The notes: generated by a model not told the origin, from the letters alone. 64,000 bases of DNA from an uncultured virus (IMG/VR IMGVR_UViG_3300009499_000096) (IMGVR_UViG_3300009499_000096); one strand, 5' to 3'. Shown: positions 1 to 64,000, numbered from the stretch's first letter. Numbers and translations: made by a program.

Positions 1-159
1 GACTTGGGAGCCAGTGGAAATGCCACTAGGACAACCTTGTTCACTAACACTTGGACTGGGCTCACCTTAGCATCAGTAGGGATCATTATCTCTGCTGCTG
101 TTGGTATCCTAGCACTTGTGTTATCTTCACTTGGAAGAGGAGCTGCTGGAGTAGCATAG
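1..159 (+). CDS. 5'-truncated ORF; candidate spindle-virus-type major capsid protein (C-terminal half)
   Basis: Frame 1 reads DLGASGNATRTTLFTNTWTGLTLASVGIIISAAVGILALVLSSLGRGAAGVA*: an N-A-T sequon in a turn followed by a long hydrophobic helix; followed by hairpin and T-tract; not in the ORF track. Confidence 0.55.
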   Translation, partial: DLGASGNATRTTLFTNTWTGLTLASVGIIISAAVGILALVLSSLGRGAAGVA

Positions 160-210
160 ACACACGACTGAAAATCTGAAGTTTGCCACAGCAAGAACAA
201 TAACACAATA

Positions 211-262
211 GTTGCTAGGGCTCTATCAGCCCAAGCAACAGCCTATCCCTTTCTTTTTTTTT
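211..262 (+). terminator. Stem-loop plus oligo-T terminator
   Basis: GTTGCTAGGGCT-ctatc-AGCCCAAGCAAC (211-239, one mismatch), then TTTCTTTTTTTTT (250-262). Confidence 0.6.
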
Positions 263-264
263 CA

Positions 265-278
265 ATAAATCTTATAAC
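265..278 (+). promoter_or_regulatory. Archaeal TATA-like box for the 303 ORF (probably leaderless)
   Basis: aataaatcTTATAA ending about 25 nt upstream of ATG 303. Confidence 0.5.
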
Positions 279-302
279 CAGAAGATGATGAAATAATAAG
301 GC

Positions 303-2708
303 ATGAACCTCTCAAGAGTGAAAAGCTCTTTTTTCATCTGCATCATCTTGTTATCCATCTTAACATCTATTCTAATGCTTGGAACCCAGATTTTACCAGT
401 CAAAGCAGCTTATGAAGATTTCACAACTTGGACAGAAGTAGATGTTGGAGCAGACAGAATCACTGTGACAGCTAATAATGTGGCTATTCATACTGAGAAT
501 GATGAGGATACTTATGTCTATAATGATTATGGAGCAGACTTCTTCACTGATTTTACTCATCAATTTGATGGAATGTGTGATGACGTTCAATCTGGAGTTC
601 CCAGTATGTCTGCATATCTCTATGGACAAGGAAATGTTGTAGATGATTTTTATGGTGGTTATCAACTTGGTAGTGCTGCTGATGGATTTGGAGTCATGTT
701 CTATGCAACTGCTGGAGCCCTTCTACGAATATATCTCAGAGAATGTTATGATGGAACACCATATGCAGATTGGACAGCCTTCAACACAGAGGATGTTTGG
801 TGTTATTTTGAACTCACTAAATCTGGAACTTCCTTGACTCTGGAAATCTACAGTTCTGATGCTCTTAGAACTGCTGGTGGTGGTGGAGACTATGACACAT
901 TAACTTTGACTCTCCATGAGGACTATAGTATGAGATACTTGTTTGCTCCATGGTGTTTCAATAATGCAAACAATGAATGGCAAGAAATAGAAGTAGCTAA
1001 CTTGGAATTTGTAATCACTTACCCTGCTTGTTTTGATTTTGGAGAAACTTCTCACCTTGCGAATACAGAGACTACTTTTTATGCAAATTGGACAGCAGGA
1101 ACATCTGAAAACATGAGCCATTGGATCATTGGATCAAACGTCAGTGGAACATTTACAAATACTACCTACAAATTTGATGTGCTAGAAGAAACTTTGCTAG
1201 AAAATGCTTCAACAGGTGGAACCAATGGATATGCTGATTTGAGGACAGGACATCCTTCTAGTGTTGCTGTGTTCAGTTCTACCTCTCAAGGTGTTAAGTT
1301 GAATTATGGTGACGTTGATTGTAACATAACGAAATATGGTGTTAGTTTGAGGAAGGGTTTTGGTTCTCCCAATGTAAATTTGACGATTGGTATTTATGAA
1401 GCTAGTGGTTCAAATCCAAATAGTTTTCCTAATAGTATTTGGAGCAGCATAGAAAACTCCACAAAACTCAATTCTACAACACTGACGACTTCTTTTGTAG
1501 CTTATAATTTTACGTTTGATGGAAGTTTTCAGATGGCTCATGGTTCCTATTATTTTTTCGCTGTTTTGGTTGTTGATGTAGTCTTGATTAATAGTGCGAA
1601 TACTGTGAGGGTTTTGTTCAATGACCAAACAGCTTTTCCAAATCCTTATGTTTATGGTAATGAAGCAACATATCATGATGATTCTTGGAGTGCTGAACCT
1701 GAAATATGGGATATGGACTTTAAACTTTATGGAGTTCCTATCTACGACACAACATGGGCAAATTATACAACAACTCTACCAATCATAGTAGGGCAAGTTA
1801 TACAATGGCAACAATGGGCTAATAACACAAAAGATGATTGGAATACAATAGGACTACAGACATTTACGATAACTGGAGTGAACTTCACTTTATACTTCAG
1901 TCATGATGGTTACTTCACAATTAATGCAATCTCAAGAATTGAAGAACCACTTTGGGCTGTGAATGGAACTGAATATGGCTTTGCCAATGGAACAGACATT
2001 AATCTTCTAGCGTCTCCCAAAAACGCAAGCTATTATTGGCTGAACTTTACATGGGATTCAGGTAACTCCATTGAGAACAATGTCATTCTCAATGTCATTT
2101 TACCTATGGAAGGATATGAATTTTGGTGTTACTTCAATTCCACACCTACTGCTGGAATAGGAGAAGTCTATCTTGTAGCAAGGTTCATGATGAACGTCTC
2201 CATACCAAACATTTACGATCCTATCTTGTTTGATGCCAGCACTTCTGAGAGCAGTTCAGCAATCTCATCTTACACTTGGGATTTTGGGGATGGAGACAGT
2301 GGATCAGGAGTTACAGCTACACATGATTATGAAGCCTATGGAAACCACACAGTTCAACTCACAGTAGTTTCTACTGATGGTTCAGATAGTCATTCCCAGT
2401 GGATCGTGGTAGGTGAACTTCCTCAGTGGCTTGGTGAATTTAACACATTACCTCTCAATCAAACAATCTTCCTTGTGATAATCGGTATCTTCTTCAGCTC
2501 TCTGTTCTTTAGCAGAAAAGAAGTTCCCTTTGGAGCTATCAGCTTTGGAGTGTGGCTAGTCACTGGAATGGTGTGGATTCTCATAACTCCAGTAGCTTAC
2601 ATGGCTTCTATGCTGTTCTTTGGGATAGCAATTATTATATTGATACTGACAATAATACAACAGTTCCACAACCTGAAAGTAGATCGGTATGGAGCAGATT
2701 TGATGTGA
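303..2708 (+). CDS. Large membrane-anchored surface glycoprotein with PKD domain (putative adhesin/virion protein)
   Basis: N-terminal signal peptide (..PVKA), beta-rich acidic body, many N-x-S/T sequons, PKD signature FDASTS..YTWDFGDG..HDY..G.HTVQLTV, three C-terminal TM segments. Confidence 0.8.
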   Translation: MNLSRVKSSFFICIILLSILTSILMLGTQILPVKAAYEDFTTWTEVDVGADRITVTANNVAIHTENDEDTYVYNDYGADFFTDFTHQFDGMCDDVQSGVPSMSAYLYGQGNVVDDFYGGYQLGSAADGFGVMFYATAGALLRIYLRECYDGTPYADWTAFNTEDVWCYFELTKSGTSLTLEIYSSDALRTAGGGGDYDTLTLTLHEDYSMRYLFAPWCFNNANNEWQEIEVANLEFVITYPACFDFGETSHLANTETTFYANWTAGTSENMSHWIIGSNVSGTFTNTTYKFDVLEETLLENASTGGTNGYADLRTGHPSSVAVFSSTSQGVKLNYGDVDCNITKYGVSLRKGFGSPNVNLTIGIYEASGSNPNSFPNSIWSSIENSTKLNSTTLTTSFVAYNFTFDGSFQMAHGSYYFFAVLVVDVVLINSANTVRVLFNDQTAFPNPYVYGNEATYHDDSWSAEPEIWDMDFKLYGVPIYDTTWANYTTTLPIIVGQVIQWQQWANNTKDDWNTIGLQTFTITGVNFTLYFSHDGYFTINAISRIEEPLWAVNGTEYGFANGTDINLLASPKNASYYWLNFTWDSGNSIENNVILNVILPMEGYEFWCYFNSTPTAGIGEVYLVARFMMNVSIPNIYDPILFDASTSESSSAISSYTWDFGDGDSGSGVTATHDYEAYGNHTVQLTVVSTDGSDSHSQWIVVGELPQWLGEFNTLPLNQTIFLVIIGIFFSSLFFSRKEVPFGAISFGVWLVTGMVWILITPVAYMASMLFFGIAIIILILTIIQQFHNLKVDRYGADLM

Positions 2709-2714
2709 TTAATC

Positions 2715-3008
2715 GTGTATGATTTTGAAGTCTATATACTTCTTATCATGGCATTATTCTTCACAACTCTCTACGAAATTGGTCACTCAAAGAAAAGAGA
2801 CTACCAGAACGATTATCTCTGGAGTGGCATCTTTGCTTCTATTATCTGGATTGTTATAGGCTTGACGTATTTTGTTGGAGCAGCCAGCAACACACCACAA
2901 CAGCCCTATGTGATAGCTTTATTACCTTGGGGAATCGGTATGTTCTACATCATCAGGTTCATGGTGGACTTAATTGATGTTAGGAGAATCAGTAGGGAAT
3001 TAACGTGA
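2715..3008 (+). CDS. Small 3-TM membrane protein
   Basis: Three hydrophobic segments; coupled to neighbours. Confidence 0.7.
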   Translation: MYDFEVYILLIMALFFTTLYEIGHSKKRDYQNDYLWSGIFASIIWIVIGLTYFVGAASNTPQQPYVIALLPWGIGMFYIIRFMVDLIDVRRISRELT

Positions 3009-3463
3009 CTTATCCACCTGTTAATATCAAAGATGAAATGCTGAGAGGAGTAATGCAAGGAGAATCCATGCAGCCAACTACTCCTGATGAACTGCAAGTT
3101 TACATGGGACAAGTTTACCACCTGTTGAAAGACGATGAAGTAATGAAGCTAGTCAAAGATGATGAAGATTTAACACCTATGTTGCCAACTATCAGCCATA
3201 TGCTCCGAACCAGCAACTTGGATAAGAAAACAAGGTTCGTTATGAAGCTTAGGGCAAGAAGGGCTTTAAGGTTACAACTGATGGTTTTAAAAACTCCCAA
3301 TTTAGTTAGCCAAGCCAAGTTTGACTCATGGCTAAACTTCATCTTTGCTGCTATAGACGACACCGATGCTGGCTGGAGAGGCAAATTAGTTACTGAAAGA
3401 ATCAAGAGCTACAAGGTAGAGATGTCTGGAGCTGGAAGAAAGAAGTTCCTAGGTGTATTCTAA
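3005..3463 (+). CDS. Hypothetical protein in the structural module
   Basis: 152 aa ORF, GTGA overlap with the upstream gene. Confidence 0.65.
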   Translation: MTYPPVNIKDEMLRGVMQGESMQPTTPDELQVYMGQVYHLLKDDEVMKLVKDDEDLTPMLPTISHMLRTSNLDKKTRFVMKLRARRALRLQLMVLKTPNLVSQAKFDSWLNFIFAAIDDTDAGWRGKLVTERIKSYKVEMSGAGRKKFLGVF

Positions 3464-3465: not shown

Positions 3466-4293
3466 ATGGTTTCAATCTGGGATTGGCTGAACTACGTTAT
3501 CATGCCTCTTGTCGGATACATCACTGTGTTCACAGTTCCATGGCTAATACCTCTGCTTTGGAAGAAGCTGTTACCTAGTGCTGCAAGGACAATGTTTTGG
3601 GCTGCAAGACGCAAGCAACCACCAGCCTTAATCTGTCATGACTCTGGAAGATCTCAATTCACTCTAGTTAAGGAGAGACGTGGTTCTGGTGTCGTCTTTA
3701 CTGACACTGGCAAATACAAGATACTGCCAAGATACAGGTTGAAAACCTCTACTGTTCAAAAGAAGAAAGAGGATGGAAAGACTACAAAACCTGTTCCTGA
3801 ACTTTCAGGTGATAAGAAGGAAATTCTCAAGCAAGTGCAAGGGAGACTTTCAGAGTTAAAAGACAGATACATTCTTGACTATACAGATTGGATTGTGAAG
3901 AGAAGTATGCTCATCGGTTTAGATCTTCCTTTGTTTGTTGGCTACTCAGGGAAACTTTGCCTATTAAACCCTGAAGCCTTAGCTCTCTATGAGGCTGGGG
4001 AGCTCTATATTAAAACTGAAGATGAAACCATGTTCAATCCTCATGAACTAGATGGTAAAGAAATGGAAGATGCTTTTCAACCATTAATGCTGATTGATCC
4101 AAGGAAGATTAAAGAAATCATTAACGATGGTTTTGATCAAGCTCAGATAGCAGCCATCGTAGTGGACTCAGAGCTCATTGGGCTTCAAGGTAGAGGAATG
4201 GGAAGATACTTGCCCTACTTCATGATTATAGGAGTAGTAATAGTTGCTCTCCTAGCAATCTTCCTTCTCCCCAGCATCCTTCCAATGGGATGA
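3466..4293 (+). CDS. Membrane protein with N- and C-terminal TM helices
   Basis: Hydrophobic termini, soluble core. Confidence 0.7.
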   Translation: MVSIWDWLNYVIMPLVGYITVFTVPWLIPLLWKKLLPSAARTMFWAARRKQPPALICHDSGRSQFTLVKERRGSGVVFTDTGKYKILPRYRLKTSTVQKKKEDGKTTKPVPELSGDKKEILKQVQGRLSELKDRYILDYTDWIVKRSMLIGLDLPLFVGYSGKLCLLNPEALALYEAGELYIKTEDETMFNPHELDGKEMEDAFQPLMLIDPRKIKEIINDGFDQAQIAAIVVDSELIGLQGRGMGRYLPYFMIIGVVIVALLAIFLLPSILPMG

Positions 4294-5644: not shown

Positions 5645-6403
5645 TTGTATGACACCAGTAGAGAAGGTTCAATGAGACGAGAGATCAGAGCTCTTTTGAA
5701 TAAAAATCCATTGCTAACAGCCAAGCCGATATGTAAGATCCTTGGCATTGATTATAAGACGTATGGACATTATGTTAGAAATGAAAAATGTATCTGGAAA
5801 AAGTCATACAAAAATAGGCTACACCTAAAAGGCTTAACTGGAGATAACTTCAAGAATTGGAGAGGCTGGGTTTATGTTCAAAAGATTATTGATCGCAAGA
5901 AGGATTCTACTGTAACTGAGAGAGCTGTTGAAGCTGGATGGATCCTGACTAAAGCTAGGAATCGGTTTTTGCTGTGGAAGGATCCAAAGAGAGGTAGGCT
6001 TGAATGGTTTGAGACTGGTAGAGTCAAGATTTGGATAAGGAAACCAGCAAACAGAGGAAAAGCCAATGAGATACTGGTCAATAGTTTTCTAAGGACAGGG
6101 CTCATTAGTAACTTCAAGATTTTTGAGGCTTTGCTGAGATCGGTTAGGTTTAAGGGAGCAACTTTACTGATTCCAACTTCGATGAGGCTACCATATTTGA
6201 AGCTGGATCTTCTTAAGGAGAGTAATGGAGTAGTGTTCAAGATGGGAGATTTGAGTCATCCTGATTGCCTAGAGTTTAATTTTTTCTATCCTGATTGGGG
6301 AGAACATTCTGAAGCTGTTGTTGCAAGGTTTCATAAATTGCTGGGAGATGTGTTCAATCCCAAGACTCAAGATCCAAAGAAACCTTCCTTTTATGATACA
6401 TGA
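5645..6403 (+). CDS. Basic hypothetical protein with an N-terminal HTH-like segment; possible DNA-binding/replication protein
   Basis: LLNKNPLLTAKPICKILG HTH-like start; adjacent to a repeat tract; resembles, from memory only, hypothetical proteins of Bathyarchaeia. Confidence 0.55.
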   Translation: MYDTSREGSMRREIRALLNKNPLLTAKPICKILGIDYKTYGHYVRNEKCIWKKSYKNRLHLKGLTGDNFKNWRGWVYVQKIIDRKKDSTVTERAVEAGWILTKARNRFLLWKDPKRGRLEWFETGRVKIWIRKPANRGKANEILVNSFLRTGLISNFKIFEALLRSVRFKGATLLIPTSMRLPYLKLDLLKESNGVVFKMGDLSHPDCLEFNFFYPDWGEHSEAVVARFHKLLGDVFNPKTQDPKKPSFYDT

Positions 6404-7909: not shown

Positions 7910-8935
7910 TTGGCAAAAGGGTTTGATGCAAGAAGTTACTCTGCTGCTGAAACCTTCCCCATGAAGATTCTCACGAACCGAAACCTTTTGGAAACAGCTC
8001 TTAAGTTCAAGAAAATTGTTCCGATTCATCTTCAATTATGTCCAACTAACCGATGTAATTTTAGTTGCTCCATGTGCTCATGCAGCTCCAGAGATAAATC
8101 CTTAGAGATTCCTGTTGATCGAATTATAGATTTTATGAGGGAGTTCAAGCTTCTTGGTGGAGAATCAGTGACGATTACAGGTGGTGGAGAGCCACTATTT
8201 CATAAACACATTGGTAGTTTGGTAGATTCAATTATTGATTTAGGCATTAAGATTGGGATTGTCACTAATGGAAGTTTATGGCATAGAATTGTAGAGTCGT
8301 CTAGGAAGTTTGATAGGATAACTTGGATTCGTGTAAGCTCCTCTGATAGTTTACCTGATCAACTTGAAAGATTGGGTAAAGATTTCTCTTGGTGGATGCA
8401 GCAACAGGATAGCATTGTGAGAAAGTATCCGACTATTGACTGGGCTTTCAGCCATGTTGTCACTGAGGATGATCCACAATTTACACTTATTGGAAAATTG
8501 ATTCGCTTTGCAAACCAACATAAATTTACTCATGTGAGATTAGTTAGCAATATTCTAAGAGCAGAAGCACTTTCCAGTAAAATGGGAGAGATTAAGAAAT
8601 CTATGGGTTTGGATAGGATTGATGATAGTATTGTGAACTATCAGGATAGAGCAACCTACGTGAGAGGAACTAACCCATGTTTCATCAGTTTGCTGAAACC
8701 TGTCTTAGCTGCTGATGGTAAAATCTATCCTTGCTGTGGAGTCCAGTATGCTTTAAAGAAACCAAGCAGAGATTTTGAACCAACAATGAATATGGGTTCC
8801 ATGGATGAATTTACTGAAATGATTAACGCACAAAAGTTCTTTGATGGAAGCAGTTGTGTGAAATGCTACTACCATAACTACAATGATGCTTTGGGAACTC
8901 TTGTGAATGGCATCAAGCATAAGGAGTTTATCTGA
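7910..8935 (+). CDS. Radical SAM protein with C-terminal SPASM/twitch-like Cys cluster
   Basis: CNFSCSMC (CxxxCxxC), TGGGEP, VTNG; C-terminal C..ADGKIYPCC..CVKC. Confidence 0.9.
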   Translation: MAKGFDARSYSAAETFPMKILTNRNLLETALKFKKIVPIHLQLCPTNRCNFSCSMCSCSSRDKSLEIPVDRIIDFMREFKLLGGESVTITGGGEPLFHKHIGSLVDSIIDLGIKIGIVTNGSLWHRIVESSRKFDRITWIRVSSSDSLPDQLERLGKDFSWWMQQQDSIVRKYPTIDWAFSHVVTEDDPQFTLIGKLIRFANQHKFTHVRLVSNILRAEALSSKMGEIKKSMGLDRIDDSIVNYQDRATYVRGTNPCFISLLKPVLAADGKIYPCCGVQYALKKPSRDFEPTMNMGSMDEFTEMINAQKFFDGSSCVKCYYHNYNDALGTLVNGIKHKEFI

Positions 8936-8939
8936 TGTA

Positions 8940-9848
8940 ATGAGGATTCTTCATGTATGGGATCAAGCTGGAGTTAGTTGTCTCCTTGCTTTGTATCAGA
9001 GAAAGCTTGGTCATGTAGCCGACATTATAATGAGGGAAGAGTTCTCTGCTGGGATGATGGAGTATTATGGGCTCACTGAGAAGTATTTTTACATGGCTGA
9101 GAAAATAGACAAGACGACAACAAAACGTAAAGCCTACTACAAACTTCCCGAACCAATCAGGAACTATGTTAGATCAATTAAACGAAAGCTGAGAAGTATC
9201 AGATTCCATCTCAAAGTTAGGGAAGCAGCTAAGAACTATGACATCGTGCACATTCACAGTAGCTGGATTAGCCTCTTATTCATTCCTTTCAAGAAGAAAA
9301 TCATTCACTGGCATGGAGACGACTGTAGAAAACAACCTAGCCTCAAACCCAGATTCAAAAAATGGCTGACTAGACTATTCATTCTCATCTACAGCCGATT
9401 CCACACCATGTATGTTTCAACACCTGACTTACTCAGGGATGTTCCTAATGCAGAGTGGCTTCCTAACCCAGTGGACTTAGACCATTTCAGCAACAGAACT
9501 TCTTTTCATCCTAGAACAGCTCTTTACACTCATAGCTGGTATGAGTCTGGAGATCATGCAAAATTTCTGGCTGTATTATACGGTTTGAATCTTACTGTGT
9601 TGGATAGAACAATTCATACTAATTGGATTCCTCACAAGGACTTCCCAGTTTACTTGGGGAAGTTTGATGTGTTTATTGATAGGAAGGAGATTCCTTCACT
9701 GAGTAAAACTGGTTTAGAAGCTCTAGCTCTTGGGATGGTGGTGGTTCAAGGATGGGATTATAAGGTGATACAGGGCTTGGATCGTAAGCATCATCCAGAA
9801 ATTTGTGCGAAAAGAGTCATTGAAATTTATGAGGAAATTTTGAAATGA
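8940..9848 (+). CDS. GT-B fold glycosyltransferase (GT4-like)
   Basis: MRILHV start, YDIVHIHS, IIHWHGDD, LPNPVD, SKTGLEALALG; start placed at ATG 8940. Confidence 0.8.
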   Translation: MRILHVWDQAGVSCLLALYQRKLGHVADIIMREEFSAGMMEYYGLTEKYFYMAEKIDKTTTKRKAYYKLPEPIRNYVRSIKRKLRSIRFHLKVREAAKNYDIVHIHSSWISLLFIPFKKKIIHWHGDDCRKQPSLKPRFKKWLTRLFILIYSRFHTMYVSTPDLLRDVPNAEWLPNPVDLDHFSNRTSFHPRTALYTHSWYESGDHAKFLAVLYGLNLTVLDRTIHTNWIPHKDFPVYLGKFDVFIDRKEIPSLSKTGLEALALGMVVVQGWDYKVIQGLDRKHHPEICAKRVIEIYEEILK

Positions 9849-54579: not shown

Positions 54580-57500
54580 ATGGGCAAAACAACTCATTAT
54601 GGGAAACCAAAAACATATCCATTCTTCTTTAGAGCTGAGAGAGGCAAAGGAGACACATTCATCAGTGGAACCTTCAAGACAAAGAAAGCTTGTAGGGCTG
54701 CTTCTAAAACCTATCCAAGTGCAAAATCCAACTCAAACTATCGAATCAGAATCATAGATAGGAGAAAATAACCATGGGTAAGCAACCAAAACCAAGAAGC
54801 AAAAAATCATGGACTTTTGTGCATACAAACCAAGAAACCAGAGAGACCTACCGTTTTAGGAAGATGGCTAATGGAACTATCAAGACAGAGAAATTTCTAG
54901 GCTGGAGAACTCCAAAGGGGAAAATCATTCCACCAAGGGGAAAATGACCATGGGGAAAAAAACATCAATAGGTAAAAGAACAATCCATGCTCTTATCTAT
55001 GGAACAAACAAAACTAAGACATTCAAAAGTAAGGTCATTCGTGAACAAACTTTGGCAAAAGGGTATCCTGTCTACCACTTCACTACCCCTAGTGGTGAGC
55101 ATAGAAATACCTCAAGAAAGGGCATCTATGGTGGTGTAGTTCTTACCAAATCAGAAGCAAGAACGAAAAGAAAGAGGAGAAAATAACAATGGTTCAAAGA
55201 AGTTATAAACCAACAAAGGTGGATGGTAGAAAAGTAGTATTTGTTGTTCGTGATGGAAGAATATGGGCAAGAGTTCCTTCACTTTCAAAAAAGCAGTTCT
55301 TAGGAATGGGCTCTACCAAGACTGAAACGATTGCAGATGTCAGAAAAGCCATGAAACACATCAAAGTTACTGCAAAGGGAAAAAGAAGGAGACGATAGAA
55401 ATGGGTAAGTTTAGACCTTCTGGAGCAACTTTACATAAAACCAAAATTAGAGCCCAGAAAGAAGCTAAGGCTCTAAGGAAGATAGGCTGGAGAGCAGAAG
55501 TTCAGCCTTCCACTAAGACAACACAGAAAAGAAGTCCAACTCTAAAATGGGTTTGCCACATAGGGCAAAAAAAGAAAAGGTGATTTTCTTGAGTAAACAA
55601 TCTCCAGTTTATGATAAGAAACCATCTAGGAAACTTTTGGAGTCGGCTGCATCCACTCACAAAACATTGTTCCATGCTGTTGTGGAAGGCATGATTGAGA
55701 GGGAAGAGAAGAAGAGGAAGAAAAGGAGATTCTGGTAAAAATGCCTTGTAGAACTAAGAGAAAAAAGAAGAATCTACTCCAAAAACATCTCTCAGAGAAA
55801 GTAATGTTTGGTGGAATTTTGGTTACTAGAGGAAAAATGGTTGCTGAGTTGCAGAGGATAGCTAAGATACAATTTCCCAAGGATACACTTAGACAAACTA
55901 GGGTAGTTAATATTTACCTTGCTGGGAAAGGGAGACGATAATCATGGGCAAGAAAATGAAATTAAGTCCAATTCAGCGAAAAGTGCTCACTAAAATCAAG
56001 AAGAGACAAATCAAGAACATAGAGAGACCAATAAGGATTGGTGGAAAACAAGCTCTCTCTCCCAAAGGCAAACCATTGAAGGCATCATTCCTGAATATCC
56101 CTAACAAGGAAGCTACTACATTCAGAACCTTGGAGAAGAAAGGGTTGATCTCAGCCTTTGGAAAAACTGAATACTACACAAATTTCAGACTCACTCAGAA
56201 AGGGAAAGCACAATTCAACATGAGGAAATAACCTTGCCTAAAAAACTCACTATATTTGAAAAACATCAATTGGCGATAGCTAAGAGGACATTGAAGATGC
56301 CTAATGTAATGGCTGCTGTGATGGGTGGCATGACTAAGGCTGAAGCCAAGCGTATTGTTAATAGGCTTGGTTCTAAAAGGAGAGGAAAATAACCATGGGT
56401 AAGAAAATGAAGTTTGTCTTGATCAGGAGAACCAAGATAGGACAAACGACTCAGCGATTTACCACTAAGAAGAGAGCCAGTGACATAGCTCTGAAGTGGA
56501 TTCGATACAGAGAAGGTATTGAAGGTGGAGTTCTCAGCATGACTTCCACAGCTCAGGTGTTGCCTATCGGGGAGTTTAACCGACAGCAAAAAGCTCTCCT
56601 TGAGAGAGATAGACGCATTGATGAGAGTAGAAGGCTGAGAATGAAGGCTGCAAGAACTGGCAAAGTGCAAGTTGGCAAAGGACTTGGTAATCTCCTCAAA
56701 GAGAAGAAGATGGCTTGTGGTTGCCCATCAGGAAAACACAAACCTTGGTGTCCATTCCACAAACCAAGCAAAGCTGAAAGAGAGAGAGTTCGTAAAGCAG
56801 AACAACATTGGGAAAGGAGTTTGGGAATACGATGAAGAAAAAGAGAGCTCCTAGAAAGAAGTGGCTTTCTCCCTCTATGAACCCAAGAAAACTGTTTGAT
56901 GTAGAACTCTTGGATACTAGACCATCACCAAGTAGAACAATCTTGAAAGTTACCAGAAGTGGAACACATCAGATGCAAGCAGTTAGAAAAGCTGCTAAAA
57001 TTCTTCCACCTTCTATCAACTTACAGGAATGGAGAGATCCAAGGGAGAAGAAGTATTCAAGATATGTCTTTTTGACAGGAGAATTGAAGTAAGATGCCAA
57101 GGGCTGTTAGTAGAAAAACGAAAAAACCTCTTCTAGCTAAACGGAAGTCTCATGCACATGATTTGCTGCTTGAAATGAAAGAAGCTAATGAAAGAAGTGT
57201 CAAAAAAGGTGTTGCTACGAAACTCTCATACAGAGTAGTTAAGCTCCAAAAAGGTTATGGAATTTACTACAAGAAAACTGGAAGATGGAGATAATCAAAA
57301 TGAAATTGAAAAACCACAAGAGGGCTCAGAAACTTGTTGGAACAACCATTGAGTTTGTTCCATGGTATCAGACGTTCAGAAAAGACACTACAATGACTGG
57401 AAAATTAATGAGAATCAGAGGAGCTATGGGTAGTAAAAGAGGGAGACCAGCAAAATCAGCAGACAAGATGATGGTCATTAAACCTACTGGGAAAACTAAG

Positions 57501-60500
57501 AAATGGCTCAAGGATATTGGGCTCATGAAACCAAAGCAGAAAACTATTGTTCGGCTTCTTACTGGGCATAAAGTCAGAAGCCAAACCAAACTGAAGAGGG
57601 GAAAATAACCATGAAGGGAAATCATAAGAAAATAGCCAGTGAACGTGAAACTATCCGAAAAGGTATAAGCCAACTGCTCAAGGAGATTGGGATGTCTAGT
57701 GCCAGCAAAACAGTGTTACAGGTCAAGAAACCAGAGGATTTGAGCACGTTCATCCGAACTGCTCAGGGAAGATTCAAGCAGATGGGAGCTGGAGCTCCAC
57801 CTAAGATTCAGAAATCTGTATCAACTGCTGTTCAGATGCTGGCTCAGTTGGAGAAGAAATACAAAAAACCCTTGAAGTATGAGCTTACAAAAATCTGGTG
57901 ATTGACATGGCTAAGAAGAAAGACAAGAAGAAAGAGAAGAAGAAGAAAAAGGACAAGGGGAAAGATAAGAAGAAATCCTTGGTCTCAGTAGAAAAAACTA
58001 CTGATTCTGGAAAATTGAAAAAGAGCAAGAAGAAAGGAAAGAAAAAAGGCAAGAAAAAAGGCAAGAAGAAATCTGGGCTCTCAGTAGCTGAAGCTATTGG
58101 TTTGGGAGAATTTAAACTGAAACCTCCAAGTGAAGTATTGTTTGAAGAGGTATGACAGATGGCTAAGAAGAAACTGAGTGAAATGAGTTACAGTGAGATA
58201 CTTCAGAGAAACATAGATCGTCATAATCGGAAGAGAGCTAAAAGCTTGGCTATGTTCCAAGCTGAACAGAAGAGGCAAGGAAAGAAAGCTAATGAGCCCA
58301 TAGACTTGATGAAAATGGTAATGGGTAGGTGATTGTGAATGGGAACACGTATTAGAAAGCATGGAGAAAAATCTTGGGAAGTTTATGGAACTGGATTTCC
58401 AGTGTTTATAGCACAATCAAAGAAAAAAGCTGATTCTGTCGCTAAAAGACGAAGGACAATTCTCAAAAATCGTAGAAAGAAGAGGAGACGATAGAAGATG
58501 AGTGCTGAACAGATTGGTGGAGTTGCTATGATGGGGATGGCTTTAGCTTCTCAAGCATTTGTGGTGGATATGGCAAGTAGTCTCATCACAGGGCAAACTA
58601 GGCTTACAACATTCAGCAGAAGGAGACCTAAAAGCAAGATTGCCAGAACTAAAGCTGGAAAACCATACTTCAGAATCATAGCTTATGAGAGTAGCCGACA
58701 TGGATTAATAATTCCTAAAAGAAGAATTGCAAGGCTCCCAAAAACAGCTATCTCAGCTATGGGAACCTTCTTTGATCCCGACACACATCATACAATCGTG
58801 GAAAGGGCTGCTAGACTTCAAAAGGGTAAGAAGAGAAAGAGCCAAATCAAATCAGCCAGAGTTACCCTACCAGCAAGCACAGTTAGTAAAATGATATTTG
58901 GATAGGATGAAAAATGACAAGATACTACACAATCAGAGACAGATACACTAGCAAGGACTTGGTTCTCACCAAAGCTGAGGCTATGAGAGCTCATGAGAGA
59001 GCTAAAGCAATGAAGAAGAAAGTGGTTAAGAACTTGGAGAAAATAACATTCTCTAAAGTGAAGGGAGTCAGTGAAAGGTCTCTGTTTGAGCTGCAAGGAG
59101 TGTTACGTTATCAAAAAGGACTCAAGAAGGGGAGAAGCTGACCATGGGCTACGTGCTATATGTTCATAACAAGTTTGGCTCAGGTAAACGCAAAGGAAAA
59201 CCGAAAGGATATGGACAATGGCATCCATCAAAAGCCTCTGCTGAACGACATAGAAAGAATCAGAGAGATACCTACAAAGATAATCCCAAGGATTTGATGG
59301 GAACCAGAATCGTGAAAGTTAAAGCTAATCATTCAAGGTTATCCTCAAAACAAATCAGAAAAAAATCTTTGGAAAGTGAATGAAAATGGGTAAGAAACTT
59401 AAAGCTTTGAAACGTAAAATCAAAACTCTCAAGAAAGACGTGGAGAAGGACTATCGGAAAACGAAAAAGGAGCTCCAGAAGCAGAAGAAGAAGGCTGAGA
59501 AGAGATATGCTGGTGTCGGGAAGAAAGTTGCAAAGGTTCAGAAAACTGCTCAAGCATGGTCTCTTAAGGTTCCTACTACTGCTGAACTTATTGGATTGGA
59601 TGAACTCACGAAAAAGAAGAAGAGGAGACGACACTAGAAATGTCTAAGAAATATGGCTACTTAGTAAGAGGAAAGAAGGTGAAACAGGGAAAATTCTGCA
59701 AGACTTTAGGTGAGGCTGGTAGAGAATTAGTTAGACAGTTACGTGCTGGTGTGGAAAATGTTAAGGTTTCACCAATTAAAAATAAGAAAATGGCTGACCA
59801 GTATTCAAAGAAAATCATTAGAAAGAGGAAGGGGAAATAACCATGGTTAGAACTTTGAAGGAAACAAAATCAAGTTATGAAAGACCAAAAGGCTGGGGAA
59901 TGTTCCATACACATTACGGAAAGAAAACTCTTGCTGAACGTCATGCTAAAAGACTTGAGAGAACTGACCTCTTGACCACAGCTATAGTTAAAACTCCTAA
60001 AGGCTGGAATGTTCTTCATAAATCCAATAAGAGAAGTCTGGAATTGGTCAGAAAACAAGTCGCAAAGAGGGGATAAATCATGCCAAAGAGACATTCAGGT
60101 TTTCTTTCAGTAGGTGTAGAGATAGATAAGAGTATCAAAAATCTTAGAAAGACTCTCAGGAAAGAAGGCATCCCTATTGTAGCCATTAAAAGAGCATCGC
60201 CACATCCACTTTTTGACTTGGATTTACCAAAGGGTTCTCATAGATACCTTGTCTCTGTTCCAGCAGCATATCTATATGGTCAAAGAGCTGAGTCTCTATC
60301 TGGTCTGAGGAAAAAAAAAGGGGAAATAATCATGCCTAAGAAAAGAAAGAAGAAAGTAGAGGAAGAGGAAAAACAATCAAGAGTTAGCCGATTACTAGGC
60401 TTGCCTCTGAAAGCCATGATGAAGCTTGGAGACTGGGAGAGAAAACAGATTGACAAAATCAAAGCTAACAGGATACAAGATGATGCTTTGAAAGCTGAGT

Positions 60501-61038
60501 TGAAGGTGATTGAGGATGCAGCTTACAAGGAAGAATCCAAGAAACTGGCAAAGCAGAGGGGAAAGAAGAAAGCCCATCAAAAGGGGAAGGGAACTGGGTT
60601 CTTTGGCGGTGTTAATCTGAAGATGCCAAACCTCATGGAAGGTATTGATGATCCTTTCAAAACTGATGGAGTGGACAATATGCTGGACACCACAGATAGA
60701 AATGCTGACGAATGGCAAGGTAAAAGGAGACGTGAGAAGAATTGACACCAAAGAAGCCGACAACAAAACGTAAACCCTACAGGACAACTAGACGAATCAA
60801 AACTAAGAAGAAAACCACTACTGAAGATGGTAAGAGGGAGTATCAGAGGAAATTGATGAGGGAAAGACGCAAGGAGCAGAAAGCCCTAATCAACTTTAGA
60901 CCACCATCTCAAACAGTGTTCGGTCACTCTTTTGCCACTGAAGTTACAGGATTTCACCATCCTAGAGACAGCATCATCGCTGATATGATGGGCTTACAGG
61001 GCTTCAATGAGAAGAAGAAGAGGGTTAGCAAGAAATGA
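54580..61038 (+). other. Array of about 25 small Lys/Arg-rich ORFs
   Basis: ORF-track genes plus hand-translated 54774-54947, 56234-56392, 58159-58332, 58339-58494; stereotyped stop-NN-start junctions. Confidence 0.85.
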
Positions 61039-61123
61039 GCAAGGAAATGAACCTAGGTAACAAGAGGGAACAAGCTTCCATCCACAAGATAGACCTATCT
61101 CATGATCTTTTGGCTCAGATTAG

Positions 61124-62134
61124 ATGGACTGTGAGAGCCCAGAAGGAAGCTTTGAAGAGCAAGGAAGTGTTGAAGGAAAAATGAGCAAACTTCACGTAAA
61201 GAAACTGAGAATTAGAATCAAGAAGTTCGATGCAAGTAAGAAAGTTAAAGCTATGTCACGACAGCAAAGAGCTGTAGCTAGGAAAAAAATGATCACTGAA
61301 TCCATGGCTTTTCAGATGTGGTGGAACGCACGATCAACCCTTAGACCAATCCCATCCGATCCCTACAGAGCCTTCATGATAGACATAGCTCTGTATGCTA
61401 AACCTCATCACCAAGAAGTGTGGAAGCATAGAACAAACCGATTGGATTATCCACCTGTTGATTTCCCGAAAGGATTTCCCCGAAAAAGAAGGAGACTTCC
61501 ACCAAGGAAAGATATTAAGAGATTCAAGAAGATCCCGAAAGCAGCCCAGAAAAGAAAACTCACTCCAGCAGAAAAATCTGTTGTGCAAGAAGTGGAGCAG
61601 TTCAACCTCAAATACCATCTTCCTGAAACAAGAGTAGTGTTCCAAGAAAAAGTGAGTGGTGGAGCCCAATATGTTCATAGTGTTTTTGGTGGTATTCCAG
61701 CTATGATTCTTTTGCCATCTCCTCTGATAGCTGGTATGGAAAAAGGCAAAGGATGGAAACAGCAAGCTGAAGGAACAATATTCCATGAACTAGGACACCA
61801 TGCTCACGTAGCCTATGGATACAGTATTCCAACAACAAGTCCTTTGAGTAAAGCCATTCCGAAAGCATACTACTCTGTCAGCCGAAAGGAGAAAGAGAAA
61901 ATAGCTTGGGGAGTTGCAAGGAGACACATTGAACGTGAGAAAGAAACTGGCTGGACACCTGTAATGGGCTGGTCAAAGAAAACTTTTCTAGGAACTTATC
62001 TTGGAACCACACCATTTATGCAAGTTGTTCCTGAAGATTACCAAGTTCCTAAAATGCCTCAGATTCCTAAGAGATACAGGGTTCCTAGTCAGAAGAAGAA
62101 AACTGGAAAGAAAGGTTCCTTGTTATGGACATAG
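61124..62134 (+). CDS. Basic protein with a zincin HExxH motif (putative metalloprotease)
   Basis: GTIFHELGHHAH followed by a downstream E..AW; true start possibly 61181. Confidence 0.6.
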   Translation: MDCESPEGSFEEQGSVEGKMSKLHVKKLRIRIKKFDASKKVKAMSRQQRAVARKKMITESMAFQMWWNARSTLRPIPSDPYRAFMIDIALYAKPHHQEVWKHRTNRLDYPPVDFPKGFPRKRRRLPPRKDIKRFKKIPKAAQKRKLTPAEKSVVQEVEQFNLKYHLPETRVVFQEKVSGGAQYVHSVFGGIPAMILLPSPLIAGMEKGKGWKQQAEGTIFHELGHHAHVAYGYSIPTTSPLSKAIPKAYYSVSRKEKEKIAWGVARRHIEREKETGWTPVMGWSKKTFLGTYLGTTPFMQVVPEDYQVPKMPQIPKRYRVPSQKKKTGKKGSLLWT

Positions 62135-62178
62135 GCTTAAGGGAGCATCAGTATTAGATTAAATATGAGTTGAATCCA

Positions 62179-64000
62179 ATGCCAATGAAAGTAATTGCAG
62201 CAAAGAAAGAGATTACTACATCTGGCTTGACTCCCGAACAACAGGAAGCTTTCAATCCAGTAGCTGAAGAGTTCTGGACTCAAGTTGATGTGGAAGCTGC
62301 AAAGTCTCAAGAAGAGTTTGAAGCTCAGTTAGCTGGAGCTAAGAAAGAGGCATTGGCAACTTGGCAAGCAGAACTTCAAGGACAAGTTAGTAAGTCAGAG
62401 TTTGAAGCTGAAATCGCCAAGATGGAGCAAGAGCAGAGAGCTAAGTTTACAGGTGAAGTAGGAACCAAGGAATCTGAAGCTAGAGCAAAGTTTGAAGCTG
62501 AACTGGCTGAGAAACGATCAGAGTTTCTGAGTGGACTTGAAACAGCTAAGAGAGCTGGTAAAAGACAGTGGCTTGCAACTTATAGACGACATTGGACACC
62601 AAGAGAAATGCGTTCTTGGGTAGTGGAGCAGAAAACTGGTTTTGAATCTGCTGTAGCTGGAGAACGTGAAGCCTTTGAATCACATCTAGGTGAATGGAAA
62701 GGTCTTGAATCACAAGCCTTTGAAAAGGGCTTAACTTCATGGAAGGAAGAACAGCTTGGAACATGGACTACACAAGCAGAACTATTGGCTGAAGGGCAAG
62801 AGCAGAGAATGAAGCTGGAAATGGCTTCATGGGAGTTTGCTGAAAGAGAGAAATGGACTAGCAAAATGCTTTCTTATCGTGAACAGCAAGCTAAGGTTCT
62901 TGAAGGATACAAGCTAGGTGAGTTCAAGGAAACAGCAAAGCCTCAGCCGACTAGCCTCAGCCAGCAAATCCTAGCATGGACACCACCTGACCTACCAGAG
63001 TGGAAAATAGAATTTCCCTTCTCAATCCCAGTGAAAGGTGGAGCTGTCCAGATAGGGTTTGATGTTGGAAAGTTCTTTGAAGGCTTGGCTAAAGGTGGAG
63101 CTGAAGCTGGAGCTGGAGTGATTGCTAGTGGAGAATCATTAGTGTATGGTGTAGGTGGATTGCTTGGTTTGCAAACACCAGCTCCACCACCTACTCTAAC
63201 TGCTTCCCTACTACGATCAGGTGTGAAAGGGTTAGGTGAAGCAACTGGACAGTGGAAAACAAGTTGGGAGTATGATGTTGGAGACATATTCATGGAACAG
63301 GGAGCTCCTTATGCTCTTGGAACATTGCTTGGAGACGTGTTGATGTTCTGGGCTGGAACCAAAGTGGAGAAAGCTGTAACAACAAGAGTAATCCCCAAGG
63401 TGAAGCAAGTTGTGTCACCTGTAACTCAGAAAGTCAGCCAAGCTTGGAGACTGTCAAAAACTGGTATAGCCTTGGAGAAGTCAAAGATCGCATTAAGAAC
63501 AGCTATGCCACATTGGAAAGGAAGCAGACTGGAAAGCTGGATTATTCAAAGGGGAATTAAACCATCCACTGAAACATTGGCTATTCACCAGCAACTAGGT
63601 AAATATTCAGCAAGGACATCTATTGGAGTTCCCAAATACACTGGTTACGCTGCTAAAGCAACCAGACAGATGGCTCCATCAGTCATAGATATTCCTGAAC
63701 TGGCTAGAGCTCATGCACTTGCTCAGAGAGGAGTTGTTACAGGAGCACAACTTCAAGCAGAAGCTGGAGCATGGGAAATGACCTTGTTCCCAAGAGCCAC
63801 TGGTCAATTAATAACTAAAGGTGTAGCTCCAAGTGTGCTTGGAACAGCAGCCGAAATTGGACTAACAGAGTTTGCTAAGGGAGCTGTTGTTGGTGGATTG
63901 AAAATGACAGATCTCTCAAAGAGGATAACTTCTTGGAAGGTAAGAGCCTTAGCTAAACCACCAAAAGGATTCCTTGAGCCAGTGGTAGGTGGAAAACAAG
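62179..64000 (+). CDS. 3'-truncated large coiled-coil protein (>600 aa)
   Basis: Frame 1 open from ATG 62179 to the window end (hand-translated); E/A/K-rich helical repeats then a Gly-rich hydrophobic region; missing from the ORF track because it has no stop. Confidence 0.8.
   Translation, partial: MPMKVIAAKKEITTSGLTPEQQEAFNPVAEEFWTQVDVEAAKSQEEFEAQLAGAKKEALATWQAELQGQVSKSEFEAEIAKMEQEQRAKFTGEVGTKESEARAKFEAELAEKRSEFLSGLETAKRAGKRQWLATYRRHWTPREMRSWVVEQKTGFESAVAGEREAFESHLGEWKGLESQAFEKGLTSWKEEQLGTWTTQAELLAEGQEQRMKLEMASWEFAEREKWTSKMLSYREQQAKVLEGYKLGEFKETAKPQPTSLSQQILAWTPPDLPEWKIEFPFSIPVKGGAVQIGFDVGKFFEGLAKGGAEAGAGVIASGESLVYGVGGLLGLQTPAPPPTLTASLLRSGVKGLGEATGQWKTSWEYDVGDIFMEQGAPYALGTLLGDVLMFWAGTKVEKAVTTRVIPKVKQVVSPVTQKVSQAWRLSKTGIALEKSKIALRTAMPHWKGSRLESWIIQRGIKPSTETLAIHQQLGKYSARTSIGVPKYTGYAAKATRQMAPSVIDIPELARAHALAQRGVVTGAQLQAEAGAWEMTLFPRATGQLITKGVAPSVLGTAAEIGLTEFAKGAVVGGLKMTDLSKRITSWKVRALAKPPKGFLEPVVGGKQ

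What the first reader, a model, noticed from the sequence alone, without database searches (positions are those of the whole stretch)
1..64000. Possible large spindle-shaped virus of an uncultured TACK archaeon (Bathyarchaeia-like)
Seen: a capsid-like hydrophobic C-terminus with a sequon (1-159), an adjacent PKD adhesin and membrane proteins, a Zot-like ATPase, many glycosyltransferases, and no recognisable terminase, portal or HK97 capsid in 64 kb. Established: spindle-shaped archaeal viruses use a two-helix hydrophobic, often glycosylated capsid protein and encode a P-loop ATPase; fuselloviruses are much smaller than this window. Inference: an unusually large genome of that morphotype whose structural module may wrap from 62 kb around to position 1. 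The host guess rests on my recollection of the 5645 and 50061 families.
Basis: inference. Interest (0 to 1): 0.72.

Follow-up and report, generated by a model that had tools for sequence, protein, structure and literature searches.

The report
Large spindle-type archaeal virus genome
This window is most of the roughly 73-kb circular genome of an undescribed archaeal virus that carries the small two-helix coat proteins typical of lemon-shaped viruses, probably infects sediment-dwelling Bathyarchaeia, and has an odd block of about two dozen tiny, very basic proteins.

Summary
It belongs to the fusellovirus B251 'DnaA-like' AAA+ family: 27 of 27 matching phage-collection records are spindle viruses.

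The ORF ending at 159 is the C-terminal half of a roughly 90-aa protein with two hydrophobic helices and a sequon-bearing loop. A profile of its family hits the predicted capsid protein of Nitrosopumilaceae spindle-shaped virus NYM1 (E 3.6e-11). The link to Fuselloviridae VP1/VP3 is inconclusive (hhalign 45%).

A syntenic contig, and the assembly graph of the source run, both show two tandem capsid-gene copies followed by the 801-aa PKD glycoprotein. Contig lengths and graph arithmetic give a circular map of about 73.3 kb. The structural module therefore wraps from 62 kb to position 1, through about 9 kb that I could not see.

No terminase, portal or HK97 capsid was found in the 64 kb.

A Bathyarchaeia host is favoured but not settled. 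A chromosomal island in one such genome holds the integrase, the '5645' gene and a capsid-gene fragment.

Predicted spindle viruses of this size are already in print (72.6 kb). This is a new lineage of a known kind. Its most unusual feature is a 6.5-kb operon-like block of 24 very basic small proteins.

The parts
1..159 (+). C-terminal half (52 aa) of the second of two tandem major-capsid-protein genes. It holds the sequon N-A-T and the second hydrophobic helix.
   Evidence: full-length relatives of 92-107 aa; a 132-nt two-copy repeat at the window start; family HMM E 2.1e-18 for this ORF.
303..2708 (+). 801-aa heavily sequon-rich surface glycoprotein with a PKD domain and a C-terminal membrane anchor. 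Candidate host-recognition or terminal-fibre protein.
   Evidence: PKD_4, E 3.4e-15; 22 sequons; 41% identity over 580 aa to the 1074-aa protein that follows the capsid genes in L003.
2715..3008 (+). 97-aa membrane protein conserved in the structural module.
   Evidence: 51% identity to L003 5947-6210, same position.
3005..3463 (+). 152-aa conserved module protein, function unknown.
   Evidence: 51% identity to L003 6228-6398, same position.
3466..4293 (+). 275-aa protein with N- and C-terminal hydrophobic segments, function unknown.
   Evidence: no family.
5645..6403 (+). 252-aa '5645 family' protein, a host-linked gene of unknown function.
   Evidence: 17 of 401 genomes of the class of G002, up to 49% identity; 1 of 371 in another class; beside the integrase homologue in L004.
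7910..16295 (+). Glycan and modification gene cluster: radical SAM, GT4, a 587-aa protein (weak N-terminal Asn_synthase/NAD_synthase and PHROG PAPS-reductase hits; FkbM methyltransferase domain), methyltransferases, radical SAM/SPASM and GT2.
21825..22199 (+). DUF5658 membrane protein. SSV1 and SSV2 genes are annotated with this family.
   Evidence: E 4.2e-8, above the cutoff; annotations; phmmer E 5.1e-4 to His1 ORF13.
23078..24001 (+). Small topoisomerase-like protein (PHROG 6247).
   Evidence: E 1e-75; 78 phage records at 33-37% identity.
37538..38239 (+). PAPS-reductase-like protein.
   Evidence: phrog_424, E 1.7e-39.
41464..42990 (+). Superfamily-2 DNA helicase.
   Evidence: phrog_16, E 5.4e-20.
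44239..44778 (+). MT-A70 DNA methyltransferase.
   Evidence: (also present in NYM1).
45997..46659 (+). GT2 glycosyltransferase.
   Evidence: E 1.4e-18.
50917..51699 (+). GT2 glycosyltransferase.
   Evidence: E 9.4e-9.
51696..52394 (-). Short (232-aa) tyrosine-recombinase-like integrase.
   Evidence: below the Pfam cutoff; phrog_1, E 3.5e-7; three homologues at 34-38% identity on the Bathyarchaeia contig G002:C5.
52608..53444 (+). AAA+ ATPase of the fusellovirus B251 'DnaA-like' family.
   Evidence: E 1.7e-17; 27 of 27 matching records are spindle viruses; SSV1 E 1.6e-9, APSV1 E 6.5e-8.
54580..61038 (+). Block of 24 tightly packed genes for small (51-221 aa), very basic proteins. Proposed DNA-condensing or virion-internal proteins (inference).
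   Evidence: pI 10.0-12.0, K+R 19-40%; gaps mostly 1-3 nt or overlaps; purine-rich GGAG-type sequence before the starts.
61124..62134 (+). 336-aa basic protein with an H-E-x-x-H motif. Candidate zincin metallopeptidase.
   Evidence: motif; weak zincin hits, E 0.06-0.1; M48/M56 structural neighbours, TM 0.35-0.42; a lead only.
62170..63999 (+). First 610 aa of an 849-aa protein with a coiled coil and Gly/Ala-rich hydrophobic stretches, and no sequons. Candidate internal virion protein.
   Evidence: P0130, 849 aa, 100% identical; 0 sequons.

Best explanation
The window is 64 kb of a circular dsDNA genome of about 73.3 kb. It belongs to an uncultivated archaeal virus whose coat is built from small alpha-hairpin proteins of the spindle-virus type.

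Shown:
- Two tandem capsid-gene copies lie at the window start. The 801-aa PKD glycoprotein and conserved membrane proteins follow them.
- The ATPase is of the family otherwise seen only in spindle viruses.
- The genome also carries a tyrosine integrase, a helicase, a small topoisomerase-like protein, methyltransferases, four glycosyltransferases and two radical SAM enzymes.
- The gene map closes on itself.

Inferred:
- The hairpin proteins assemble into a lemon-shaped shell with their glycosylated loop facing out.
- The virus's own sugar-modification cluster decorates the capsid proteins and the 801-aa adhesin, which sits at one pole and binds the host.
- The 24 small basic proteins encoded just upstream of the structural genes neutralise and condense the unusually long DNA inside the shell.
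- The H-E-x-x-H protein trims virion proteins.
- The integrase allows a proviral state.

The most likely host is a member of the Bathyarchaeia. My sub-probabilities are: virus 0.9, spindle-type capsid module 0.7, circular map of about 73 kb 0.8, Bathyarchaeia host 0.55.
For: Capsid family:
- Full-length relatives are 92-107 aa with two hydrophobic helices.
- The family has 104 cluster representatives at E<=1e-3.
- Of the 93 I aligned, 87 have exactly two hydrophobic segments and 89 have a sequon between them.
- The AlphaFold2 model has two long helices, 3-39 and 44-91, at pLDDT 89.
- The family HMM hits the 89-aa ORF of NYM1 at E 3.6e-11 among 1226 ORFs. Ni et al. name an 89-aa protein as that virus's predicted MCP (PMC10866085, passages).
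- The best-scoring SSV1 ORF for the same HMM is VP3 (E 0.42, not significant). An 88-aa ORF of APSV1 scores E 0.004.

Synteny: L003 carries, in order, a large glycoprotein, a 95-aa MCP, an 88-aa MCP, a homologue of the 801-aa protein, and homologues of 2715-3008 and 3005-3463.

Tandem copies and circle: Logan contigs of the source run include a 132-nt node at depth 18.6, against 11.8 for its neighbours. A 327-nt loop returns to it. A 34,916-nt contig enters it from upstream and a 37,944-nt contig leaves it. The path sums to about 73,301, against contig lengths of 73,423 and 73,017.

ATPase: PHROG 5484. All 27 matching phage-collection records are Fuselloviridae or APSV1.

DUF5658. SSV1 and SSV2 carry the same annotation.

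No terminase, portal or HK97 hit in 139 ORFs.

Host:
- The contig G002:C5 comes from a MAG titled Bathyarchaeia. It is cellular, with CODH/ACS, Fwd, Ftr and CysRS genes.
- It holds three integrase homologues, two 5645 homologues and a capsid-gene fragment with 21 of 21 residues identical.
- The 5645 family is in 17 of 401 genomes of that class and in 1 of 371 of the other class.

A near-identical virus is present in four runs of a second study.
Against: No significant link was obtained to any capsid protein proven by experiment.
- hhalign of the family against ten fusellovirus VP1/VP3 sequences gave 44.6% probability. A reversed-template control gave 9.3%.
- Against His1 VP21 the probability was 2%.
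- The NYM1 capsid protein is itself only a prediction.

About 9.3 kb of the genome was not seen. The 849-aa ORF and the capsid genes account for about 1.2 kb of it.

The window's DUF5658 protein did not hit phrog_7761, the PHROG of its SSV1 and His1 counterparts, at E<=1.

phmmer found only the ATPase shared with SSV1 and APSV1. With NYM1 it found only MT-A70 and one small protein besides the MCP.

Host:
- The closest syntenic relative, L003, is binned in a MAG of a different class, one of small genomes.
- The broad MCP family is as frequent in that class (15 of 371) as in the class of G002 (13 of 401).
- The ATPase was found in only 4 of 401 genomes of the class of G002. Its two strong hits lie on short contigs that share nothing else with the window.

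The basic proteins show no significant similarity to SSV1-type VP2. The best E is 0.036.
Confidence: 0.68

Rival explanations
1. The virus uses the same hairpin protein but forms another particle type: a rod or bacilliform particle, or an enveloped pleomorphic vesicle in which the small two-helix protein and the anchored glycoprotein sit in a lipid membrane.
For: The architecture of a small hydrophobic protein, a large C-terminally anchored glycoprotein and an NTPase is not unique to lemon-shaped particles. The structure searches could not tell the hairpin from any other helical hairpin. The fusellovirus MCP link is only 45% by hhalign. Ni et al. also considered a rod shape for their viruses (PMC10866085, passages).
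Against: The ATPase family is found only in spindle viruses in the phage collection (27 of 27). Two tandem MCP copies match the VP1/VP3 pattern of SSV1. Ni et al. argue that larger genomes favour spindles over rods. A 73-kb genome is far above the rod-shaped clavavirus, whose size I recall rather than tested.
Confidence: 0.15
2. It is a head-tailed virus (Caudoviricetes) whose capsid, portal and terminase genes lie in the unseen ~9 kb. On this reading the 849-aa coiled-coil, Gly-rich protein is a tape measure.
For: About 8 kb is unaccounted for. The 849-aa protein has a coiled coil and Gly/Ala-rich stretches. Several replication and modification genes have phage relatives.
Against: No tail, portal, terminase or HK97 hit was found in 139 ORFs. 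The 849-aa protein hits no tape-measure family. In the syntenic contig L003, a large glycoprotein lies upstream of the capsid genes, not a head gene. The unseen stretch must also hold that glycoprotein and one MCP copy.
Confidence: 0.04
3. It is a large plasmid or integrative element and not a virus. The hairpin proteins are then ordinary small membrane proteins.
For: It has an integrase, many methyltransferases and glycosyltransferases, and no capsid family recognised by Pfam or PHROGs. MCP-family genes also occur on very small integrated units.
Against: No conjugation, partition or plasmid replication gene was found. Gene order is conserved from the capsid-like genes through the adhesin to the membrane proteins. 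The family matches a predicted viral MCP. The ATPase is of the spindle-virus type.
Confidence: 0.05
4. The virus is as described, but its host is not a Bathyarchaeia member. It could be a small-genome archaeon of the class that holds G001, or an ammonia oxidiser like the hosts proposed for NYM1.
For: The closest syntenic relative, L003, lies in a MAG of another class. The MCP family is in 15 of 371 genomes of that class. The named virus with the nearest MCP is assigned to Nitrosopumilaceae.
Against: L003 is a 6.4-kb contig in a 2.0-Mb bin, within a class whose listed genomes are 0.3-1.2 Mb, so the binning is doubtful. The 5645 family is in 17 of 401 genomes against 1 of 371. The Bathyarchaeia chromosome contig holds three marker genes together.
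Confidence: 0.35

Closest known systems
[quoted passage not shown]
   Same: The capsid protein family is shared: the family HMM hits the 89-aa predicted MCP at E 3.6e-11. Both have an MT-A70 methyltransferase. Both have sequons in the hairpin loop. Both are mesophilic, metagenome-only viruses with predicted morphology.
   Different: NYM1-type genomes are 27-38 kb (PMC10866085, passages), against about 73 kb here. phmmer found no shared ATPase or other core gene. The NYM1 record is linear, whereas the map here is circular. The proposed host differs.
Fuselloviridae (SSV1, SSV2, SSV6, ASV1, SMF1) and APSV1
   Same: B251-type AAA+ ATPase beside a tyrosine integrase. Two tandem ~90-aa two-helix capsid genes with sequons, like VP1/VP3. 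A large protein of about 800 aa next to them, like the end-filament protein C792. A DUF5658 gene. A circular genome.
   Different: Fuselloviridae genomes here are 15-24 kb and APSV1 is 38 kb. Capsid homology is inconclusive (45%). No other core gene was found by phmmer. No VP2 homologue was found. The integrase is only 232 aa, and SSV-type features were not tested.
Huangdiviridae (Bathyarchaeia provirus, Xuanyuanvirus yandi)
   Same: A predicted spindle virus of Bathyarchaeia with two hairpin capsid proteins bearing sequons, an AAA+ ATPase, a tyrosine integrase and a glycosyltransferase (PMC10541130, passages).
   Different: Huangdivirus has a clear SSV1 VP2 homologue (HHblits 99.5% in that paper), and none was found here.
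Large predicted spindle viruses of ANME-1 (Tepeuviridae PBV144, 72.6 kb; Itzamnaviridae)
   Same: Genome size. Some have two MCP genes and circular genomes. They split into a structural and an enzymatic arm, and carry auxiliary genes such as PAPS reductase and asparagine synthase (PMC9894754, passages).
   Different: That paper says pletoitzamnaviruses and tepeuviruses encode family B DNA polymerases, and none was found in the window. Their records are not in the collections at hand, so membership could not be tested.

Membership tests
Spindle-virus alpha-hairpin major capsid proteins | Small protein (about 70-100 aa when mature) made of two hydrophobic helices joined by a short turn. | tested here: met
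   Relatives are 92-107 aa. Of 93 family members, 87 have exactly two hydrophobic segments. The AlphaFold2 model has helices 3-39 and 44-91 at pLDDT 89.
Spindle-virus alpha-hairpin major capsid proteins | N-glycosylation sequon in or next to the turn. | tested here: met
   N-A-T in the window ORF. Of 93 members, 89 have a sequon between the helices. Glycosylation itself was not shown.
Spindle-virus alpha-hairpin major capsid proteins | Detectable homology to an MCP proven by experiment (SSV1 VP1/VP3, His1 VP21). | tested here: inconclusive
   hhalign against ten VP1/VP3 sequences gave 44.6% (reversed control 9.3%). Against His1 VP21 it gave 2%. The HMM E-value for SSV1 VP3 was 0.42, the best of the SSV1 ORFs. 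For scale, His1 VP21 itself hits the SSV VP1 PHROG only at E 0.029.
Spindle-virus alpha-hairpin major capsid proteins | Structural match to the solved spindle capsid proteins. | tested here: inconclusive
   Foldseek against the PDB and BFVD gave nothing at E<=0.001. The top BFVD row was a Nitrosopumilus spindle-shaped virus protein at E about 1. VIA-align lists only generic helical hairpins.
Spindle-virus alpha-hairpin major capsid proteins | Lemon-shaped particle containing the protein. | not testable with these tools
   Needs microscopy and proteomics.
Nipumfusiviridae | Shares the family's MCP. | tested here: met
   HMM E 3.6e-11 to the NYM1 89-aa ORF.
Nipumfusiviridae | Shares the other conserved genes named by Ni et al.: the ATPase, a Zn-binding protein and three proteins of unknown function. 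| tested here: not met
   phmmer of all window proteins against NYM1 ORFs found only MT-A70 and one small protein besides the MCP. This is a single-sequence method, so distant homology could be missed.
Fuselloviridae | B251-type DnaA-like AAA+ ATPase. | tested here: met
   phrog_5484, E 1.7e-17. 27 of 27 matching records are spindle viruses.
Fuselloviridae | Remaining core genes (VP4/C792, B277 and the others) and a genome of about 15-24 kb. | tested here: not met
   phmmer against SSV1 and APSV1 ORFs found the ATPase only. The genome is about 73 kb.
Caudoviricetes | HK97-fold capsid protein, large terminase and portal. | tested here: not met
   0 of 139 ORFs in Pfam or PHROGs. The unseen ~9 kb was not tested.
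Huangdiviridae, Tepeuviridae, Itzamnaviridae | Shared gene content with the exemplar genomes. | not testable with these tools
   The exemplar records are absent from the collections.

The most novel reading that the evidence does not exclude
The 6.5-kb block of 24 small, extremely basic proteins (54580-61038) is a virus-encoded set of protamine- or histone-like proteins. On this reading they are packaged with the DNA, and they let a hairpin-protein spindle capsid hold a 73-kb genome. That would be a packaging solution not described for any spindle virus.

A second, linked reading concerns the very small integrase-plus-capsid-gene units scattered in Bathyarchaeia chromosomes (L004, G288:C1). 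These could be satellites that use large viruses of this kind as helpers.
Probability: 0.25. Interest if true: 0.75.

Novelty: new variant of a known kind. Interest (0 to 1): 0.55.

Why it matters
Bathyarchaeia are among the most abundant archaea in sediments, yet ICTV lists only four families of their viruses and a single spindle-type one, a provirus (PMC12451623, passages). This genome would be a second, unrelated and much larger spindle-type lineage for that host group. It is complete enough to design probes and to search for spacers.

It also ties the capsid family proposed for ammonia-oxidiser viruses to viruses of other archaeal classes. That points to one widespread mesophilic capsid family.

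The block of basic proteins offers a concrete, testable idea for how a simple hairpin-protein shell copes with a long genome.

None of this changes the known picture of spindle viruses. It extends it.

Tried and rejected
Flank retrieval failed.
- Exact 40-mers from both window ends are not in viral contigs.
- Protein-guided scans found no relative of the 610-aa, ATPase or MCP (A1) queries in viral contigs, nor of the 801-aa protein in metagenome contigs.
- No whole genome is held for the window.
- megablast of 1-20000 against the phage collection found nothing.
- The A2 alignment was too divergent for a pattern scan.

tblastn of two family members against the phage collection found nothing.

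Shallow hhalign runs against single sequences gave 2-22%.

The VP2 profile against the window gave a best E of 0.036. BLASTP of the H-E-x-x-H protein against the APSV1 M48 protease found no similarity.

A 'longer' search for the 610-aa fragment found nothing. The 'near' search then gave the 849-aa full length.

The protein-atlas look-up of the 5645 protein gave no usable hit.

Contigs carrying the nearest 5645 homologues share nothing else with the window. The contigs with the ATPase or with distant MCPs share almost nothing else.

Rfam found no family and ARAGORN found no tRNA.

Four accessions were not in the collection.

I considered a CRISPR mini-array and found none among the tandem repeats.

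Full report
**What the window is.**
- The 64 kb hold about 139 ORFs covering 88% of the sequence, 122 of them on the + strand.
- There is no tRNA and no Rfam family.
- G+C is 37-44%, and cumulative GC skew rises without a turn.
- Only 17 of 139 ORFs hit a PHROG at E<=0.001.
- The recognisable genes are those of a virus or mobile element:
  - a small topoisomerase-like protein (phrog_6247, E 1e-75), which has relatives at 33-37% identity in 78 phage records;
  - a DUF5131 protein, a PAPS-reductase-like protein, an SF2 helicase and an MT-A70 methyltransferase;
  - a weak tyrosine integrase and an AAA+ ATPase;
  - a cluster at 7910-16295 with two radical SAM enzymes, methyltransferases and glycosyltransferases.
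- No cellular housekeeping gene, terminase, portal or HK97 capsid was found.
- Exact look-up places the window's proteins on contigs of 73,423 and 73,017 bases. About 9 kb of the replicon is therefore outside the window.

**The capsid candidate.**
- ORF 1-159 is a 52-aa C-terminus with N-A-T and one hydrophobic helix.
- A search for longer proteins found eight relatives of 92-107 aa. Each has an N-terminal hydrophobic helix, a polar loop with sequons and the same C-terminal helix.
- A profile search of 1.84 billion representatives returned 104 proteins at E<=0.001, mostly 76-140 aa.
- Of the 93 I aligned, 87 have exactly two hydrophobic segments, 92 have a sequon, and 89 have one between the segments.
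- AlphaFold2 gives a two-helix hairpin at pLDDT 89.
- The same HMM gave E 0.004 for an 88-aa APSV1 ORF and E 0.42 for SSV1 VP3. VP3 was the top SSV1 ORF but is not significant.
- Profile-profile comparison with ten fusellovirus VP1/VP3 sequences gave 44.6% probability, against 9.3% for a reversed template. When extended, the alignment was collinear, helix to helix.
- I call the fusellovirus link inconclusive. For scale, the proven His1 capsid protein hits the SSV VP1 PHROG only at E 0.029.
- Fold searches cannot discriminate a helical hairpin and are recorded as uninformative.

**The structural module and the circle.**
- The only close relative with context is L003, a 6.4-kb contig. It carries, in order:
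  - a large sequon-rich glycoprotein with a C-terminal anchor;
  - two tandem MCP genes of 95 and 88 aa;
  - a 1074-aa homologue of the window's 801-aa PKD protein (41% identity over 580 aa);
  - homologues of 2715-3008 and 3005-3463.
- In the source run, Logan's contigs show a 132-nt node that overlaps the window start, at depth 18.6 against 11.8 for its neighbours.
- A 327-nt contig leaves that node and re-enters it. It resembles positions 94-162 with 7 differences.
- A 34,916-nt contig enters the node from upstream, and a 37,944-nt contig leaves it to window position 38,037.
- This is the signature of two tandem MCP genes that share a 132-nt identical stretch.
- The 34.9 kb upstream of position 1 cannot fit in a linear 73-kb contig that already holds the 64-kb window. 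That upstream contig must therefore contain the window's own 3' part.
- The closed path sums to about 73,301 bases, within 0.4% of both contig lengths.
- The 3'-open ORF is 849 aa in full. About 8 kb therefore remains unaccounted for. By synteny it should hold at least one large glycoprotein and the first MCP copy.

**Other links to spindle viruses.**
- The ATPase at 52608-53444 matches the PHROG of the fusellovirus 'DnaA-like' protein (E 1.7e-17).
- By tblastn it matches 27 phage-collection records, all of them Fuselloviridae or APSV1. phmmer gives E 1.6e-9 to SSV1 B251.
- It lies next to the integrase, as in SSV1, though divergently rather than convergently.
- The protein at 21825-22199 passes Pfam DUF5658. 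SSV1 and SSV2 genes are annotated with that family, and phmmer links it weakly to His1 ORF13 (E 5.1e-4). It did not hit the PHROG of those proteins.
It has no Pfam hit at E<=0.01.

**The basic-protein block.**
- From 54580 to 61038 there are 24 consecutive + strand ORFs of 51-221 aa, with pI 10.0-12.0 and 19-40% Lys+Arg. The 336-aa protein that follows them is also basic.
- Elsewhere only 3 ORFs reach the joint cut I applied, pI 10.5 with 22% K+R.
- The genes are separated mostly by 1-3 nt or overlap. Many start M-G-K and end in Arg/Lys runs, and the codons of those runs form a GGAG-type purine tract just before the next start.
- This packing argues for real, co-translated genes. Only one pair is detectably paralogous (E 1e-4).
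- A profile of four fusellovirus VP2 proteins gave no significant hit (best E 0.036).
- The block sits just upstream of the structural genes, and the genome is long for a hairpin-protein shell. From this I infer DNA-condensing or internal virion proteins. This is inference only.

**Host.**
- The genome scan with the MCP alignment found two loci.
- L004 lies on a 123-kb contig of a MAG titled 'uncultured Candidatus Bathyarchaeia archaeon'. That contig is cellular, with CODH/ACS subunits, formylmethanofuran dehydrogenase, Ftr, CysRS and Pol IV.
- Between about 9 and 35 kb the contig holds integrases and defence-like genes. It contains:
  - three homologues of the window's integrase (34-38% identity);
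  - two homologues of the 5645 protein (32-40%);
  - beside one such pair, a roughly 100-nt capsid-gene fragment with 21 of 21 residues identical to the window and both helices missing.
- The 5645 family occurs in 17 of 401 sampled genomes of that class, often on contigs of 0.2-2.5 Mb. It occurs in 1 of 371 genomes of the class that holds L003's MAG.
- Evidence against a Bathyarchaeia host:
  - L003 itself is binned in that other class of small genomes.
  - The broad MCP family is equally frequent in both classes (13 of 401 and 15 of 371).
  - The ATPase is in only 4 of 401 genomes.
- I put the Bathyarchaeia host at about 0.55.

**What is known.**
- Passages read in four papers show that spindle viruses with hairpin MCPs now include Fuselloviridae, Halspiviridae, Thaspiviridae, Nipumfusiviridae, Eurekaviridae (two MCP copies) and Huangdiviridae (PMC12451623, PMC10541130).
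- Huangdiviridae is a single Bathyarchaeia provirus with VP1-3, an ATPase, an integrase and a glycosyltransferase.
- Predicted spindle viruses of ANME-1 reach 72.6 kb, with structural and enzymatic arms (PMC9894754).
- Neither the size nor the host group is therefore new in kind.
- The lineage has no close relative of the queries I tried in IMG/VR or the phage collection. It fails the gene-content tests for Fuselloviridae and Nipumfusiviridae.
- I rate it a new variant of a known kind.
- A preprint on capsid-bearing satellites of spindle viruses was seen only as a search listing (10.1101/2025.02.15.638363).
- Earlier notes of this scan describe small capsid-bearing integrated elements in Bathyarchaeia. 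These are unchecked leads. They fit what I saw in L004 and G288:C1.

Noticed in passing
window 54580-61038: 24 consecutive small genes encode proteins of pI 10.0-12.0 with 19-40% Lys+Arg. Gaps between them are mostly 1-3 nt or overlaps. Many begin M-G-K and end in Arg/Lys runs. AT skew rises to 0.17-0.30 from 54 kb on.
   Followed up: partly
window, e.g. 21843, 31325, 31516, 32065, 33751, 33990, 44029, 46640, 50043, 59624: The motif GGAGACGACA (up to 1 mismatch) occurs 26 times against 1.9 expected, 25 of them on the + strand. In the repeat families it lies a few bases before an ATG. It looks like an extended ribosome-binding or start signal.
   Followed up: partly
window 47487-47584 and 49215-49312: Two copies of a 98-nt direct repeat at 88% identity, 1.7 kb apart, in a stretch of small ORFs.
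   Followed up: no
window 23078-24001: A 307-aa protein of PHROG 6247, annotated 'DNA topoisomerase'. It is 33-37% identical to proteins of 78 phage records, including Pseudomonas, Xylella and Microbacterium phages. From memory it resembles the small Topo VI-A-like 'mini-A' proteins of mobile elements.
   Followed up: partly
L065-L067 (G288:C1 near 126 kb, 188 kb and 283 kb): Three copies, 85-96% identical over about 1-1.2 kb, of a unit that holds an MCP-family gene and lies beside an integrase-like ORF. They sit on a 1.46-Mb contig of a genome in the class of G002. They may be remnants or capsid-bearing mini-elements.
   Followed up: partly
L004 / G002:C5 about 9-35 kb: The capsid-gene fragment lies in an island with three integrases, a fused DarT-DarG-like protein and ATPases with weak PtuA- and MAD3-like matches.
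   Followed up: partly
P0024, P0025 (MCP-family members from other contigs): Their N-termini read like archaeal pilin-type leaders: basic residues, then G-S, then the hydrophobic helix. This hints that some members are matured by a prepilin-type peptidase. An earlier scan note raises the same idea.
   Followed up: no
window 7243-7469, 7620-7859, 17311-17646: In runs of a second study the near-identical virus lacks or replaces these short stretches, which cover small ORFs such as 7256-7462. Elsewhere it differs by scattered substitutions.
   Followed up: no
window 61124-62134: A basic 336-aa protein with H-E-L-G-H. The atlas's structural neighbours are M48/M56 peptidases (TM 0.35-0.42), one cluster of them from Bathyarchaeota. 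APSV1 also encodes an M48 protease, but the two show no sequence similarity.
   Followed up: partly
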